Positions 60,001 through 63,000 of a stretch of DNA of 64,000 bases are shown in pieces. The first letter of the stretch is position 1; each line of letters begins with the position of its first letter. Made by a program: the position numbers. Origin of the DNA: Escherichia phage ETEC-TG; the sequence record OR786310.1. One strand, 5' to 3'.

Positions 60001-63000
60001 TGTTGCCAACATATAATCAATACTTGTGAAACCTTGCCCTTTGGCATAGTCAAGCATATCTTCATACATATCTTCAAGATCACCGTCATCAAAAGTAGCT
60101 AGAAAATCCTCGTCCCCGCTACGAACATAAAATGCAGTACTCATTCATCTTCATCCCAAGATTCAAAAACGCAGCAATCATCGGTTTCTATAATACCAAC
60201 ACGTCCGCAGGTATTGCAAGTGATTTTATCACCGTAGAATAAATAATTTTTATCACCCTCTGTGTTTACAGTTATGTCATTACTACCACAAGGGCAAGTC
60301 AGCCAACCAACAACGATATCTTTTTTCATAATCCCTCCTTAAGCGTTCAGTTTGTTGTTGAGTTCGTAAATCTCTTCTTGAAGAGCATCAATCTCTTCCT
60401 CCAAACGGGAGATCTCTTCTTTTAGATATACCATTTCTGATTCTTTCTCTTCTAATTCATTTTCAAATTTTACTTTATTCGCCTCATTTTCATAATGCAG
60501 TTCAGCGTAATCATCACGCATTTGTTCAATAAGATGAATCAGAGATAAGATATAGTTATCCCCAGTTTCATCTCGCCACTCTTCCCCGTGGCGCAAGATT
60601 GTGATTCGTCCAGTGTTTTCATCTAAAATTGTCTCATATTTACGATCATCTGTATAAATCTGCATTATTACTCCTTATTGAAGTTTAAGTGAACCACGAA
60701 GACGTTTCTCTTGCTGATCACGAATATATTGTGGAACCTCGTGAATTGAATCATTACCGTGCCTATTTTCAACAACTAAAGAGATAACTTGATAACCAAA
60801 CTCTTCAGCAAGAGTTAGATAAGGTTTAAGTTCTTTCTCTGTGGTTGAAGTGTTAGAAACAATAATCTTGTTAAGATTAGATGCCATAGCATCACGAACA
60901 ATACTCTGACACCATGCGTGTGCTTTACCTACATTTTCTGGCTTCCAATCGTAAACACCACTTTCTGTGTAATGGTATTGATCTGCCTCACAGATAGGCC
61001 AATAACCTTCAGAAATAATTTCTGCTACCGTAGATTTACCAGCACCTGAAACGCCACGTAAAATGATAAGTTGTTTCATTTATCCTCCAAAGAAGTTTTC
61101 GATTTTTTCACGTCGCTCTTGCTGATTTAAAGCAGCCCATTGAGTCTTCGTAAAATTATTTCGAATCCATTCTAACAAAGCGTAATATTCTTCGTCAACA
61201 ATTTGTTTGGCATTTTTTGGATTATCCCAAATCAGATCCCACTTTTTATCTCCACCACGCATAAGAAACTTCTTAGTAAGATAGTGTGGTGATTTAATTT
61301 TTAAAAGTAAGTTGAACGGATAGTTTGTTTCACGAACTACAAACCCTTCGTGTTTACAATGTTTAGACATTTCAACAACATCTGAAAACTTAACCATTGG
61401 ATGAACTTCAGGACGCTTAAATTTGGTGACAGAAGCAATTCCATCAAGAGCACCTTCAGGTAACATAAAACTTGTCCCATCAGGATTTTGAATTCTGGCA
61501 CCAATTAAGTATGCACCTGGTTCTTCTTCGACAATATGCGGATCAGAAGGATCACAGATTTCAAACAGGAAAGTTGCTTTTGCACTCTCTGCCCATTTGA
61601 TGAAATGTTCTATGTCATCGCACTCTGAAACAATATGATTCTTTGCAATACTTGCAAAATCTGATTCAAGGCTTCCTGTTGTCGATACAATAAGTTGACC
61701 TTTATATACACCTACAGAGGCCATAAAACCATTTACTTTACGAACCACATCTACAAGTTCATCCGCTGGTAGATCTGTGCCATTCTCAAAACGATTAAAA
61801 ATCTTAGTGAAAGGCCAAATAACAACATTGTCATCAGCATCAACAACGATTCCGCGACATTCTAGAAGACGAGAATCAATGCTCCATAAGTTATCCCAGA
61901 AAACTTTGTTCTTATACTTAAGAACAGATAGACCAGAATACTCTCCTTCTTTATATGTTTTCTTATGAACTAAACCTTTTTCAACCAAATCGTCGCAATT
62001 AAATTTAGTCACATTACTCTCCTTTGATTATTTTGTGATGGTCTACAGTCACGATATCTCGTTTACTCATCATAGAAATTATCTCATCAAAATGCAAGAT
62101 TTTTCCGTGTGCATCCCAACCCACATCTAACATTTTACCATAAGCTTCATCAGGGAAAGATCCGTGGGAATGCCCGTGTAGCATGATTGATCCACGACCT
62201 TGTTTATTCCAGGAGGCAATAGGGTAATGACTTAAGACGAAGAACAGCTTCTGGTATTTCACTTCGTCATAATACACCACTTCGCCATACTCTGCAAGCA
62301 CTTCTCGGTGCTTGCTGTAATCATGGTTCCCAACAAGATAAGTGATATCCCCTTGCAGACGGGAAGCAATCTTACGGGTATCTTCTTCAGTCCCGAAACA
62401 GAAGTCGCCCAAATGCCACATCTTAACACCAGGGGTAGTAGCACATTTGTTCCATGCTTCGATCAAGGCTTCTGTCATGTGGTCCATATCTTCCCACGGA
62501 CGATATTCAGGAGCAAACTCTCGAATGCGTTTATGCATAAAATGCAAATCGCTTGTAATAAACATTAGTATAATCCCTCGCTAAATAATTCATGGTCGTG
62601 ACCATTACGCTCATGGTCGATCTGGTCAGCATTTTCCGCGATGATGTAAGCATCCGCACGACTCCACCAATTGTAATACTGATCGATAAAGCCTTGATTA
62701 TCTGGTGTGCACAAAGTTTTGTTGATTACACCTGCTTCTTTCAACACGTTTAACTGTGCATATAGTACAGGATTTGCATGTCGAACACAAGGAATAATTA
62801 ACTCTTCGCCATTATTCAAAATATACTTATTTGCAGCACAGACAATAACACGTTGCGCATAATGACCCTCACCCATCCAGGTAAGAGGTTGGTAACAAAT
62901 GTTGTTTTCAATACCACTCATTGTTTCCTAATCCTCCTCTCTTAAATTATCCTCGAAAAAACTAGTATCTGGAAGTAAAAGATCATTGCTTGTGTCGGGC

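What the first reader, a model, noticed from the sequence alone, without database searches (positions are those of the whole stretch)
60675..62565. Split three-gene RNA repair module: metallophosphoesterase, Rnl1-like RNA ligase and Pnk-like kinase
Three co-directional genes with abutting stop and start codons encode a calcineurin-like phosphoesterase (62014-62565), an Rnl1-like ligase (61080-62012) and a P-loop kinase resembling the T4 Pnk kinase domain (60675-61079). T4 repairs anticodon-nuclease-cleaved tRNA with bifunctional Pnk (kinase plus HAD phosphatase) and Rnl1 encoded at separate loci. Here the healing phosphatase is a metallophosphoesterase, as in bacterial Pnkp, and all three activities sit in one operon. 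This looks like a recombined tRNA-repair counter-defence module.
Basis: partly seen in the sequence, partly recalled or inferred. Interest (0 to 1): 0.7.

Follow-up and report, generated by a model that had tools for sequence, protein, structure and literature searches.

The report
Conserved phage RNA heal-and-seal gene cassette
Three adjacent genes of this phAPEC8-like E. coli phage encode a phosphoesterase, an RNA ligase and an RNA 5'-kinase that most likely mend cut tRNA; the cassette is real but common in large phages, already annotated and predicted in print, and has never been tested biochemically.

Summary
Three tightly packed minus-strand genes at exactly the stated coordinates encode three proteins:

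- A metallophosphoesterase with all metal-binding motifs.
- A ligase of the Rnl1/Trl1 clade with the motif I lysine (K92) and motifs III, IV and V.
- A stand-alone kinase that aligns end to end with the T4 Pnk kinase domain (hhalign 97%). Its best fold matches are C. thermocellum and T4 polynucleotide kinases, not adenylate or dNMP kinases.

The framing is wrong in three places:

- **Not recombined.** The window is a Phapecoctavirus. In 49 IMG/VR loci chosen only by a ligase relative (37-88% identity), the phosphoesterase lay within 8 kb in 49 and the kinase in 47, in four gene orders.
- **Not like Pnkp.** The phosphoesterase belongs to the uncharacterised aq_1665/COG4186 clade, not the lambda-phosphatase/Pnkp clade.
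- **T4 genes are linked.** T4 pseT and rnlA lie 1.4 kb apart on one strand, not at separate loci.

The operon also carries a cREC (predicted cyclic-phosphate processing) gene upstream. Relatives of the phosphoesterase occur fused to an RNA ligase or to a "Swiss Army Knife" RNA-repair HAD domain. GenBank annotations and two papers already propose this function, and I found no experiments. Best reading: an RNA end-healing and sealing pathway, probably a counter-defence against tRNA nucleases.

The parts
62014..62565 (-). Calcineurin-like metallophosphoesterase (183 aa) of the aq_1665/COG4186 clade, PHROG 547. Predicted 2',3'-cyclic-phosphate / 3'-phosphate end-healing enzyme.
   Evidence: ORF. 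phrog_547 at 1e-55. In a 25-member family alignment D6, H8, H11, D54, N80, H81, H113, H132 and H134 are invariant, which covers all canonical metal ligands. The profile hits PDB 1xm7 at 1.6e-22. It lies within 8 kb of the ligase in 49 of 49 IMG/VR loci. Relatives are fused to an RNA ligase (P0363) or to a HAD_SAK RNA-repair domain (P0385, P0392).
61080..62012 (-). ATP-dependent RNA ligase (310 aa, GTG start) with an Rnl1/Trl1-type adenylyltransferase domain and a short helical C-terminal module. Predicted sealing enzyme.
   Evidence: Pfam RNA_lig_T4_1 at 4e-15, 56.6 bits against a cut-off of 28.3. R53, K70, K92, N94, G95, E151, E222, G223, K238 and K240 are invariant; they align with T4 Rnl1 R54, K75, K99, G102, E159, E227, G228, K240 and K242. 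AF2 model pLDDT 92.6. Best folds are fungal Trl1 ligase domains and T4 Rnl1, E about 1e-13.
60675..61079 (-). Stand-alone P-loop polynucleotide 5'-kinase (134 aa), homologous to the kinase domain of T4 Pnkp. It has no phosphatase domain.
   Evidence: Pfam AAA_33 at 4e-10 and phrog_505 'polynucleotide kinase' at 2e-8. hhalign against T4 PseT gives 97.2% probability, E 2.9e-11, across T4 residues 1-149. Profile against PDB: Pnkp1 1.9e-7, T4 Pnk 7e-5, CthPnkp kinase 3e-4. AF2 pLDDT 92.7. Foldseek top hits are the CthPnk and T4 Pnk kinase domains at TM 0.75-0.80, against about 0.5 for adenylate kinases. K15, D33 and R106 are invariant, and position 16 is always Ser or Thr.
63081..63437 (-). cREC protein (118 aa; 'cyclic-phosphate processing receiver' domain). 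Predicted metal-independent opener of 2',3'-cyclic phosphate or processor of ADP-ribose cyclic phosphate. Same operon, upstream.
   Evidence: Pfam PF20274 at 1.2e-13. The receiver-type residues D8, D9, D52, D54, S91 and K98 are invariant in 8 homologues. A homologue lies next to the ligase in rV5 and in 9 of the IMG/VR loci. The predicted role comes from PMC7824862 and PMC9503650.
62565..62921 (-). Small conserved phage protein (118 aa; PHROG 839; homologues carry Pfam PF26092). Function unknown. Translationally coupled to the phosphoesterase by a TAATG overlap.
   Evidence: Conserved motifs are IVCAAN, RH, QGFID and a C-terminal ELFSE-LY. No Pfam hit in the local copy and no PDB relative. Found beside the triad only in close relatives (L011, L012) and about 2.4 kb from the phosphoesterase gene in L059, so it is probably not a core part.
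62928..63071 (-). 47-aa acidic ORF between the cREC and PF26092 genes, with its own Shine-Dalgarno sequence. Function unknown.
   Evidence: Annotated as a hypothetical protein in relatives. A homologue was detected only in L012.
57690..58415 (-). MazG-like nucleotide pyrophosphohydrolase (241 aa), downstream in the same leftward gene block. It is a recurring neighbour of the cassette in rV5-like phages.
   Evidence: Pfam PRA-PH at 2.7e-6 and phrog_671 at 7.5e-29. A homologue lies near the ligase in rV5 and in 14 IMG/VR loci. Listed as part of the rV5-type neighbourhood in PMC9503650.
31216..32016 (-). Sir2-family protein, homologue of rV5 ORF84. In rV5 that gene sits two genes downstream of the RNA ligase; here it is 29 kb away. 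A candidate accessory for NAD+-dependent removal of a 2'-phosphate; speculative.
   Evidence: tblastn with rV5 ORF84: 47% identity over 276 aa, E 2e-80. Pfam SIR2 at 1.3e-22. The hypothesis comes from PMC9503650.

Best explanation
The three genes, probably together with the upstream cREC gene, encode an RNA heal-and-seal pathway split into separate polypeptides.

1. The metallophosphoesterase, perhaps after ring opening by cREC, removes the 3'-terminal phosphate to give a 3'-OH.
2. The Pnk-type kinase phosphorylates the 5'-OH.
3. The Rnl1/Trl1-clade ligase, adenylylated on K92, joins the ends.

The likely biological role is counter-defence: it keeps the tRNA pool usable during infection.

Shown here: domain identities, intact catalytic residues, operon structure, gene linkage across distant phages, and domain fusions of the phosphoesterase family with RNA-repair domains.

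Inferred: every enzymatic activity, the substrate (tRNA), and the counter-defence role.
For: - **Ligase.** Rnl1-type adenylyltransferase with every essential motif residue invariant. Best structural matches are the tRNA ligases Trl1 and T4 Rnl1.
- **Kinase.** Full-length homologue of the T4 Pnk kinase domain. Top fold matches are polynucleotide kinases. The P-loop, the catalytic Asp33 (T4 Asp35) and Arg106 (T4 Arg122) are conserved.
- **Phosphoesterase.** All metal ligands are invariant.
- **Linkage.** In 49 loci retrieved only by ligase similarity (37-88% identity), the phosphoesterase was within 8 kb in 49 and the kinase in 47. The gene orders were PE-lig-kin (39), kin-lig-PE (5), lig-PE-kin (2) and lig-kin-PE (1), so linkage survived rearrangement. 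The same triad occurs in rV5, PAK_P1, JSF12 and Aci05.
- **Fusions.** A 53%-identical phosphoesterase is fused to a PF09414 RNA ligase with an intact KxHGxNG motif (P0363). Two others are fused to the HAD 'Swiss Army Knife' RNA-repair domain.
- **cREC.** Found in the same operon.
- **Context.** In relatives a cluster of 10 tRNA genes lies about 3 kb beyond the window end. In rV5 and Streptomyces phage Stigma the ligase lies beside or inside a tRNA cluster. In PAK_P1, JSF12 and Aci05 the cassette lies beside the PRPP-synthetase-like plus NAMPT-like pair. From memory, that pair resembles the NAD+-reconstitution anti-defence pair NARP1.
- **Precedent.** T4 Pnkp plus Rnl1 repair PrrC-cut tRNA-Lys (established knowledge; cited in PMC10264068).
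Against: - No activity of any of these proteins or their close homologues has been measured, and I found no experimental paper.
- The closest solved relative of the phosphoesterase is an uncharacterised structural-genomics protein, so activity on RNA ends is inferred from context and fusions only.
- T4 Pnk Arg38 is replaced by a nearly invariant His36, and T4 Arg126 has no conserved counterpart.
- The ligase lacks about 100 residues of the T4 Rnl1 C-terminal domain, which confers tRNA specificity. hhalign stops at T4 residue 266 of 374 (the role of the C-domain is from PMC6379707). tRNA as the substrate is therefore not established.
- An ATP-dependent DNA ligase lies 0.7 kb downstream of the kinase and near the cassette in about two thirds of the loci, so a role in DNA-end healing cannot be excluded.
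- The loci share ancestry, so the linkage counts are not independent events.
Confidence: 0.68

Rival explanations
1. The pathway runs by yeast-type chemistry (Trl1/Tpt1) rather than T4-type chemistry. cREC and/or the phosphoesterase open the cyclic phosphate to a 2'-phosphate. The ligase, whose motif I is KxNG as in Trl1, requires or tolerates that 2'-phosphate. The phage Sir2 protein then removes it using NAD+. This is the proposal of Iyer et al. 2022. It is a mechanistic variant of the best explanation rather than an alternative function.
For: The top fold matches include four fungal Trl1 ligase domains, slightly ahead of T4 Rnl1. Motif I is K-V-N-G with N94 invariant, and Trl1 motif I is KxNG (PMC6379707). 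In rV5 the order is ligase, cREC, Sir2, MazG. A Sir2 homologue exists in this genome. NAD+-related genes sit next to the cassette in PAK_P1, JSF12 and Aci05. The hypothesis is published in PMC9503650.
Against: Here Sir2 is 29 kb from the cassette. A binuclear metallophosphoesterase would be expected to remove the phosphate completely, as CthPnkp does (PMC2190708 abstract), which would make a 2'-phosphotransferase unnecessary. The Trl1 residues proposed to bind the 2'-phosphate lie in a C-domain that is unique to Trl1, and the phage C-module is much shorter. No sirtuin is known to act as an RNA 2'-phosphotransferase.
Confidence: 0.15
2. The cassette serves the phage's own RNA metabolism rather than counter-defence. 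Possible roles are maturation or quality control of the phage-encoded tRNAs, or repair of phage transcripts cut by phage or host RNases.
For: The cassette lies close to phage tRNA gene clusters in Phapecoctavirus, rV5 and Streptomyces phage Stigma. It is conserved in phages of very different hosts, which would face different defence repertoires.
Against: The only known role of a phage kinase-plus-ligase pair is counter-defence in T4 (established knowledge). Bacterial and phage tRNA maturation needs no ligation unless introns are present. No tRNA gene lies within the window itself. The neighbouring genes in other phages look like anti-defence functions.
Confidence: 0.1
3. The phosphoesterase and kinase heal DNA ends (3'-phosphate and 5'-OH nicks) for the nearby ATP-dependent DNA ligase, and the RNA-ligase-like protein has another role. 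T4 gp63 (Rnl1) also promotes tail-fibre attachment, which is the source of the 'tail attachment' annotations.
For: The DNA ligase at 58808-59935 is in the same leftward gene block, and a homologue is within 8 kb in about two thirds of the loci. There is a weak NCBIfam hit of the phosphoesterase to PdeM, a ligase-associated DNA-damage-response phosphoesterase (E 0.003, far below cut-off). T4 Pnkp also acts on DNA (established knowledge).
Against: The position of the DNA ligase relative to the triad varies widely, from 2 to 5 kb on either side, whereas ligase and kinase are often adjacent. The fusions of this phosphoesterase family are with RNA ligase and RNA-repair HAD domains. All catalytic residues of the RNA ligase are invariant, which would not be needed for a purely structural role in tail-fibre attachment.
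Confidence: 0.05
4. The three genes are not a functional unit. They are merely neighbours in a nucleotide-metabolism region. The phosphoesterase might, for example, degrade signalling nucleotides, and the kinase might act on nucleotides.
For: Phage early regions pack unrelated small genes tightly. The phosphoesterase family is very large, with 11,423 clusters at E<=1e-3, and is surely not all devoted to RNA repair. Calcineurin-like enzymes in phages have been proposed to target cyclic nucleotides (PMC7824862).
Against: The triad co-occurs in 47 of 49 loci in four gene orders and across several phage families. The domain fusions point to RNA repair. The kinase resembles polynucleotide kinases rather than nucleotide kinases.
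Confidence: 0.02

Closest known systems
Bacteriophage T4 Pnkp (pseT) plus Rnl1 (rnlA) tRNA repair pathway
   Same: The logic is the same: a 5'-kinase, a 3' end-healing phosphoesterase and an Rnl1-type ligase. The kinase is homologous to the T4 Pnk kinase domain over its full length. The ligase adenylyltransferase domain is homologous to T4 Rnl1, with the essential residues conserved. In both phages the genes are co-directional neighbours; T4 pseT and rnlA are 1.4 kb apart.
   Different: The kinase is a separate 134-aa protein with no HAD phosphatase domain. The 3' healing candidate is a binuclear metallophosphoesterase, which is an unrelated fold. The ligase has 310 aa against 374 and lacks most of the T4 C-terminal tRNA-specificity domain. 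Motif I is KxNG rather than KxDG. It scores 24.7 bits against the 242-bit cut-off of the NCBIfam T4 RnlA equivalog.
Bacterial Pnkp (Clostridium thermocellum Pnkp-Hen1; Capnocytophaga Pnkp1-Rnl-Hen1)
   Same: The same three chemistries, including a metallophosphoesterase as the 2',3'-phosphate healing enzyme. The kinase's best sequence and fold matches include Pnkp1 (4xrp) and the CthPnkp kinase domain.
   Different: There the three activities are fused in one polypeptide, in the order kinase, phosphatase, ligase, and work with the Hen1 methyltransferase. No Hen1 is seen here. The phosphoesterase is from a different clade: aq_1665/COG4186, with no detectable match to lambda phosphatase or the Pnkp phosphatase. 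The ligase is Rnl1/Trl1-like rather than Rnl4.
rV5/Mydo-type phage neighbourhood described by Iyer, Burroughs, Anantharaman and Aravind 2022 (PMC9503650, section 3.7.3)
   Same: The same gene families: T4-like tRNA ligase, cREC, nucleotide kinase, MazG and calcineurin-like phosphoesterase. The window's proteins are 35-54% identical to their rV5 counterparts. This is the class to which the window's cassette belongs.
   Different: In rV5 the kinase and phosphoesterase are transcribed divergently from ligase-cREC-Sir2-MazG. Here all lie on one strand in the order cREC, two small ORFs, phosphoesterase, ligase, kinase, and the Sir2 gene is 29 kb away. The paper calls the phosphoesterase an occasional component, whereas in my sample it accompanied this ligase type in 49 of 49 loci.
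Fungal tRNA ligase Trl1 (ligase, kinase and cyclic phosphodiesterase domains) with Tpt1
   Same: The ligase domain is the best or joint-best structural match. Both have motif I KxNG. Both combine a ligase, a Pnk-type kinase and an enzyme that processes cyclic phosphate.
   Different: Trl1 is a single trifunctional polypeptide with a 2H-family cyclic phosphodiesterase and a unique C-domain that is proposed to bind the 2'-phosphate. No Tpt1/KptA homologue was noted here.

Membership tests
Rnl1-clade ATP-dependent RNA ligase (T4 Rnl1 type) | Motif I lysine nucleophile (KxxG) | tested here: met
   K92 in R-K-V-N-G aligns with T4 K99. K92, N94 and G95 are invariant in 32 homologues.
Rnl1-clade ATP-dependent RNA ligase (T4 Rnl1 type) | Nucleotidyltransferase motifs III, IV and V, plus the Rnl1-specific N-terminal sub-module residues (T4 R54, K75, F77) | tested here: met
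   E151, E222, G223, K238, K240, R53 and K70 are invariant and F72 is nearly invariant. They are aligned with the T4 residues. Pfam RNA_lig_T4_1 scores 56.6 bits against a cut-off of 28.3.
Rnl1-clade ATP-dependent RNA ligase (T4 Rnl1 type) | T4-type C-terminal domain (about residues 255-374) that confers tRNA anticodon-loop specificity. Ligase clades are defined by their C-domains (PMC6379707). | tested here: not met
   hhalign covers only T4 residues 33-266, and the phage protein ends 38 residues after the aligned part. The hmmsearch alignment stops at residue 238. The model shows a 68-residue helical module at 242-309. The NCBIfam T4 RnlA equivalog scores 24.7 bits against a cut-off of 242. 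Whether the short module is a reduced version of the T4 domain was not resolved.
Polynucleotide 5'-kinase (T4 Pnk / Pnkp kinase-domain family) | P-loop GxxGxGK(S/T) and the catalytic Asp that activates the 5'-OH (T4 Asp35) | tested here: met
   G-V-S-G-A-G-K15-S16 and D33 align with T4 K15, S16 and D35. K15 and D33 are invariant in 35 homologues, and position 16 is always Ser or Thr.
Polynucleotide 5'-kinase (T4 Pnk / Pnkp kinase-domain family) | Closer to polynucleotide kinases than to adenylate, dNMP or gluconate kinases | tested here: met
   The profile against PDB ranks Pnkp1, T4 Pnk and CthPnkp first. Foldseek gives TM 0.75-0.80 for CthPnk and T4 Pnk against about 0.5 for adenylate kinases. 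hhalign to T4 PseT gives 97.2%. The PHROG dNMP-kinase match covers only the P-loop, residues 1-35.
Polynucleotide 5'-kinase (T4 Pnk / Pnkp kinase-domain family) | Substrate-binding arginines equivalent to T4 Arg38 and Arg126 (their essential role is recalled from memory of Shuman-lab mutagenesis) | tested here: not met
   T4 R38 aligns with His36, which is at least 90% conserved. T4 R126 aligns with a variable position. Only T4 R122 has a conserved counterpart, R106.
Bifunctional T4-type Pnkp | C-terminal HAD (DxDxT) 3'-phosphatase domain fused to the kinase | tested here: not met
   The protein has 134 aa, all of it kinase domain. The listed homologues that cover the query have 126-145 aa.
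Calcineurin-like binuclear metallophosphoesterase superfamily | Motifs DxH, GD, GNH(D/E), H and GHxH that supply the metal ligands | tested here: met
   D6, H8, D54, N80, H81, H113, H132 and H134 are invariant in 25 homologues. Pfam Metallophos or Metallophos_2 matches 13 and 17 of the 25 members. The window protein alone is below the gathering score, 22.6 against 27.
Lambda-phosphatase / CthPnkp-type 2',3'-phosphatase clade | Detectable sequence relationship to lambda phosphatase or to the Pnkp phosphatase domain | tested here: not met
   The family profile against all PDB sequences at E<=10 lists aq_1665 (1.6e-22), then weak matches to GpdQ-like, YfcE-like and Rv0805 proteins and to ApaH (E 1.3). 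Neither lambda phosphatase nor the Pnkp phosphatase appears.
Lambda-phosphatase / CthPnkp-type 2',3'-phosphatase clade | 2',3'-cyclic phosphodiesterase and phosphomonoesterase activity on RNA ends | not testable with these tools
   This needs enzyme assays. The only indirect support is gene linkage and fusions.
cREC (cyclic-phosphate processing receiver) domain, PF20274 | Pfam model above its gathering score, with the receiver-type acidic pocket (DD, D, S/T, K) | tested here: met
   52 bits against a cut-off of 27. D8, D9, D52, D54, S91 and K98 are invariant. The catalytic function of the family is itself only predicted.
rV5/Mydo-type sirtuin-centred RNA-repair neighbourhood (Iyer et al. 2022) | The sirtuin gene is linked to the ligase, cREC, kinase and MazG genes | tested here: not met
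   All the other components are within 6 kb of each other. The Sir2 homologue is at 31216-32016, 29 kb from the ligase.

The most novel reading that the evidence does not exclude
This short KxNG ligase defines its own RNA-ligase clade and works by eukaryote-like chemistry inside a phage. Ends healed by cREC and the phosphoesterase keep a 2'-phosphate that the ligase requires, and the phage Sir2 protein then removes it with NAD+. That would be a new enzymatic role for a sirtuin. It would also make the aq_1665/COG4186 metallophosphoesterases (thousands of uncharacterised proteins) a new family of RNA end-healing enzymes.
Probability: 0.12. Interest if true: 0.75.

Novelty: new member of a known kind. 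Interest (0 to 1): 0.35.

Why it matters
tRNA-cleaving defences are now recognised as common in bacteria; PrrC, RloC, PARIS, some retrons and Cas13 are examples. T4 remains the only phage whose RNA repair has been demonstrated. This cassette is the commonest non-T4 arrangement I saw: 682 GenBank phage records carry this ligase type. It occurs in phages used or proposed for therapy, including Phapecoctavirus, Vequintavirus and Pakpunavirus. Showing that it works would do three things:

- Assign a function to a very large uncharacterised metallophosphoesterase clade.
- Define the substrate range of a short Rnl1-like ligase.
- Help predict which tRNA-targeting defences these phages can escape.

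The finding is a good target for biochemistry but not a discovery. The prediction already exists in database annotations and in two papers.

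Tried and rejected
1. **Apparent fusion in L019.** A 504-aa phosphoesterase-ligase 'fusion' came from an error in my ORF-extension script. The ORF listing and the sequence show two ORFs separated by a stop, so I rejected it. Genuine fusions were later found in the representative library.
2. **PF26092/phrog_839 gene (62565-62921).** It has no hit in the local Pfam, NCBIfam or PDB by profile, and no paper mentions PF26092. 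The name of the Pfam family could not be retrieved. It does not travel with the triad outside close relatives, so I did not count it as a core component.
3. **Burroughs and Aravind, NAR 2016, on RNA repair systems.** The paper could not be read by PMC id or by DOI, so I relied on the two later papers from that laboratory.
4. **Single-sequence PDB search with the kinase.** It gave only P-loop-level hits; the family profile was needed.
5. **tRNA genes.** None lie in the window. The tRNA cluster of relatives starts beyond the window end.
6. **Homologues of the PAK_P1 neighbours.** The PRPP-synthetase-like, NAMPT-like and HD-phosphohydrolase genes of PAK_P1 are absent from the window.
7. **Literature on function.** I found no functional literature on aq_1665/COG4186 and no paper combining Phapecoctavirus with RNA ligase.
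8. **Promoter scan.** It was uninformative: 29 sites found against 23 +/- 5 expected.

Full report
**1. What is in the sequence**

The window is part of a phAPEC8-like myovirus (genus Phapecoctavirus, Stephanstirmvirinae). Bases 60300-63950 are 99.6% identical to Escherichia phages BI-EHEC and dw-ec and 96-99% identical to about 55 other genomes.

- 62014-62565: 183 aa
- 61080-62012: 310 aa, GTG start
- 60675-61079: 134 aa

The junctions are tight. The phosphoesterase stop TAA is followed by one base and then the ligase GTG. The ligase stop TAA is followed directly by the kinase ATG. Each start has a Shine-Dalgarno sequence.

The unit is longer than the finding says. Upstream on the same strand lie three more genes:
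- A 118-aa gene (62565-62921) whose stop overlaps the phosphoesterase start (TAATG).
- A 47-aa ORF (62928-63071).
- A cREC gene (63081-63437; Pfam PF20274, 1.2e-13).

Downstream follow a coiled-coil protein, two small ORFs, an ATP-dependent DNA ligase (58808-59935) and a MazG-like pyrophosphohydrolase (57690-58415). No terminator-like hairpin lies on the minus strand between 63460 and 58873. The genes therefore sit inside one long leftward transcription block, consistent with the uniform negative GC skew from about 32 kb to 64 kb.

**2. The kinase**

Pfam gives AAA_33 (4e-10). PHROGs gives an 'ATPase' family (3e-56) and the polynucleotide kinase family (2e-8). The dNMP-kinase match covers only the P-loop.

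An alignment of 35 homologues (50-90% identical, 126-145 aa) has K15, D33, R106, H107 and others invariant. Position 16 is always Ser or Thr.

A profile of that alignment, searched against all PDB sequences, ranks these first:
- Pnkp1 of the Pnkp1-Rnl-Hen1 repair complex: 1.9e-7
- Two fungal stand-alone kinases
- T4 Pnk: 7e-5
- The C. thermocellum Pnkp kinase domain: 3e-4

Gluconate and adenylate kinases rank below these.

hhalign against T4 PseT, taken from a T4 genome record, gives 97.2% probability and E 2.9e-11. It aligns the whole phage protein with T4 residues 1-149, that is, the whole kinase domain and none of the phosphatase domain.

An AlphaFold model (pLDDT 92.7) matches the C. thermocellum and T4 kinase domains best (TM 0.75-0.80). 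Adenylate kinases reach about 0.5.

There are two departures from T4. Arg38 is a conserved His, and Arg126 has no conserved counterpart; only Arg122 does, as R106.

**3. The ligase**

Pfam RNA_lig_T4_1 scores 56.6 bits against a cut-off of 28.3.

In 32 homologues (49-86% identical) the invariant residues include R53, K70, K92, N94, G95, E151, E222, G223, K238 and K240. In the HMMER and hhalign alignments these fall on T4 Rnl1 R54, K75, K99, G102, E159, E227, G228, K240 and K242.

The model (pLDDT 92.6) matches the ligase domains of fungal tRNA ligase Trl1 and T4 Rnl1 about equally well (E about 1e-13). Archaeal Rnl3, T4 Rnl2 and Naegleria Rnl5 come next.

Motif I is KxNG, as in Trl1 (PMC6379707), rather than KxDG as in T4.

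The similarity to T4 Rnl1 ends at T4 residue 266 of 374. The phage protein has only a 68-residue helical tail. The T4 C-domain gives Rnl1 its preference for the tRNA anticodon loop, and RNA ligase clades are defined by their C-domains. 'Rnl1-like' is therefore right for the catalytic domain, but membership of Rnl1 in the strict sense is not established. The protein also falls far below the NCBIfam T4 RnlA equivalog cut-off.

**4. The phosphoesterase**

The window protein alone is just below Pfam's threshold for Metallophos_2.

Across 25 homologues taken from related loci, all metal-ligand motifs are invariant: D6-x-H8, G-D54, G-N80-H81, H113 and G-H132-x-H134. Most members pass Pfam.

The family profile hits Aquifex aq_1665 (PDB 1xm7, an uncharacterised structural-genomics protein) at 1.6e-22. 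Nothing else scores better than 0.004. Neither lambda phosphatase nor the Pnkp phosphatase appears even at E<=10. The resemblance to bacterial Pnkp is therefore at the level of the superfamily and of the proposed job, not of the family.

The clade is very large. It has 11,423 clusters at 50% identity with E<=1e-3, nearly all of them stand-alone proteins of 170-200 aa. I found nothing on its function.

**5. Evidence that the genes work together**

Synteny:
- tblastn with the ligase finds 682 GenBank phage records. They include Escherichia, Pseudomonas, Vibrio, Streptomyces, Klebsiella, Acinetobacter and Aeromonas phages.
- In rV5 the kinase and phosphoesterase are transcribed divergently from ligase-cREC-Sir2-MazG.
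- In Pseudomonas phage PAK_P1 the order is phosphoesterase, three small genes, ligase, kinase.
- In the T5-like Vibrio phage JSF12 the order is ligase, kinase, phosphoesterase.
- In Acinetobacter phage Aci05 the order is ligase, kinase, a small ORF, phosphoesterase.
- I retrieved 49 IMG/VR loci using ligase motifs only (37-88% identity). A phosphoesterase homologue lay within 8 kb in 49 and a kinase homologue in 47.
- The gene orders were PE-lig-kin (39), kin-lig-PE (5), lig-PE-kin (2) and lig-kin-PE (1).

These loci are related by descent, so the counts are not independent. Even so, linkage has survived several rearrangements and transfers between phage families.

Fusions among relatives of the phosphoesterase:
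- A 524-aa protein joins a phosphoesterase 53% identical to the window's to a PF09414 RNA ligase with an intact motif I (KIHGTNG).
- Two proteins join the phosphoesterase to the HAD 'Swiss Army Knife' RNA-repair domain.

Context:
- cREC, a domain found only in RNA-repair and ADP-ribose contexts according to its describers, is in the same operon. It keeps the receiver-type acidic pocket.
- A cluster of ten tRNA genes lies about 3 kb beyond the window end in relatives.

**6. Most likely mechanism**

I commit to a split heal-and-seal RNA repair pathway:
1. The phosphoesterase, possibly after cREC opens the ring, heals the 2',3'-cyclic phosphate end.
2. The kinase phosphorylates the 5'-OH.
3. The ligase seals the break through K92-AMP.

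The probable purpose is to undo damage by host tRNA nucleases. I put confidence at about 0.68 for the pathway as such, and lower for the counter-defence role.

Nothing enzymatic has been shown, by me or in any paper I could find.

The main variant is the proposal of Iyer et al. 2022: the chemistry is Trl1-like, and a phage sirtuin removes a residual 2'-phosphate with NAD+. A Sir2 homologue exists here, but 29 kb away at 31216-32016.

Less likely readings are service to the phage's own tRNAs, DNA-end healing for the nearby DNA ligase, or no functional unit at all.

**7. Comparison with what is known, and novelty**

The cassette works like T4 Pnkp plus Rnl1 and like bacterial Pnkp, but it is a member of neither. 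It has no HAD domain, no T4-type ligase C-domain, no Pnkp-type phosphatase clade and no Hen1.

It does belong to the rV5/Mydo-type neighbourhood class described by comparative genomics in 2022. It differs in gene order and in the unlinked sirtuin.

The prediction is already public:
- GenBank record MK373788 (2019) labels the three genes 'putative polynucleotide kinase', 'putative RNA ligase' and 'putative phosphoesterase or phosphohydrolase'.
- A 2025 paper on a Pakpunavirus says the homologous kinase and ligase could restore cleaved tRNA. It notes that the kinase lacks the 3'-phosphatase domain but does not connect it with the phosphoesterase.

T4 pseT and rnlA are co-directional and 1.4 kb apart.

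This analysis adds four points:
- The phosphoesterase is a constant member of the cassette, not an occasional one.
- It belongs to the aq_1665/COG4186 clade.
- That clade occurs fused to RNA-repair domains.
- The ligase lacks the T4 C-domain.

**8. Verdict**

This is a real, ordinary-for-its-group phage gene cassette whose predicted function is sensible and already proposed. It is a worthwhile target for biochemistry rather than a new kind of system.
- Novelty: new member of a known kind.
- Interest: 0.35.
- Most novel reading not excluded: Trl1-like chemistry with a sirtuin acting as 2'-phosphotransferase. I give it about 0.12 probability.

Noticed in passing
window 63081-63437 (minus strand): A cREC ('cyclic-phosphate processing receiver') gene sits in the same operon, upstream of the three genes. 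Some GenBank records mislabel it 'putative RNA ligase and tail attachment protein'. The receiver-type residues D8, D9, D52, D54, S91 and K98 are invariant.
   Followed up: yes
window 62565-62921 (minus strand): A small protein of unknown function (PHROG 839; homologues carry Pfam PF26092, which is absent from the local Pfam copy) is translationally coupled to the phosphoesterase. It has strikingly conserved motifs: IVCAAN, RH, QGFID and a C-terminal ELFSE-LY. It also occurs in T4-like and jumbo phages. Some records call it 'anti-restriction nuclease' without visible basis. No solved relative was found.
   Followed up: partly
window 31216-32016 (minus strand): A Sir2-family gene is 47% identical to rV5 ORF84, which sits two genes downstream of the RNA ligase in rV5. 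Here it lies 29 kb away, near where the GC skew changes sign (about 30-32 kb).
   Followed up: partly
proteins P0363, P0385, P0392 (representative library): These are natural fusions of this phosphoesterase family. P0363 joins it to a PF09414 RNA ligase. P0392 joins it to a HAD 'Swiss Army Knife' RNA-repair domain. In P0385 the HAD domain is inserted inside the phosphoesterase. Their source genomes could not be looked up.
   Followed up: partly
L061 (T4 GT7, KJ477686.1 134018-137480): In T4 itself, pseT and rnlA lie on the same strand 1.4 kb apart, separated by small pseT.1-3 ORFs. The classical repair genes are therefore also neighbours.
   Followed up: yes
L007 7326-10164; L008 10084-13136; L009 12470-14849: In PAK_P1, JSF12 and Aci05 the cassette lies next to a 'ribose-phosphate pyrophosphokinase' plus 'nicotinamide phosphoribosyltransferase' pair. 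From memory, this resembles the NAD+-reconstitution anti-defence pair NARP1. No homologues are in the window. Aci05 also has a second RNA ligase next to that pair.
   Followed up: partly
L008 6186-6929 (Vibrio phage JSF12): A second, lambda-phosphatase-like ('NinI-like') metallophosphatase lies immediately upstream of the ligase. JSF12 therefore carries two different calcineurin-like enzymes flanking the ligase-kinase pair.
   Followed up: no
search hits (OP562383.1, MG065639.1, MG065653.1): Records named 'Acinetobacter phage vB_AbaM_ABPW7' (97% identical to this E. coli phage) and 'Campylobacter phage A150' and 'C14' (ligases 87% and 48% identical, the latter like rV5) look like coliphage genomes under unexpected host names. 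Mislabelling or contamination is possible.
   Followed up: no
window 57690-59935 (minus strand): A MazG-like pyrophosphohydrolase and an ATP-dependent DNA ligase lie downstream in the same gene block. Both recur near the cassette in many related loci, at variable distance.
   Followed up: partly
L010 (Streptomyces phage Stigma) 1-10528: A distant ligase plus polynucleotide kinase pair is embedded within a tRNA and tmRNA gene cluster. No phosphoesterase homologue was detected within 7 kb.
   Followed up: no
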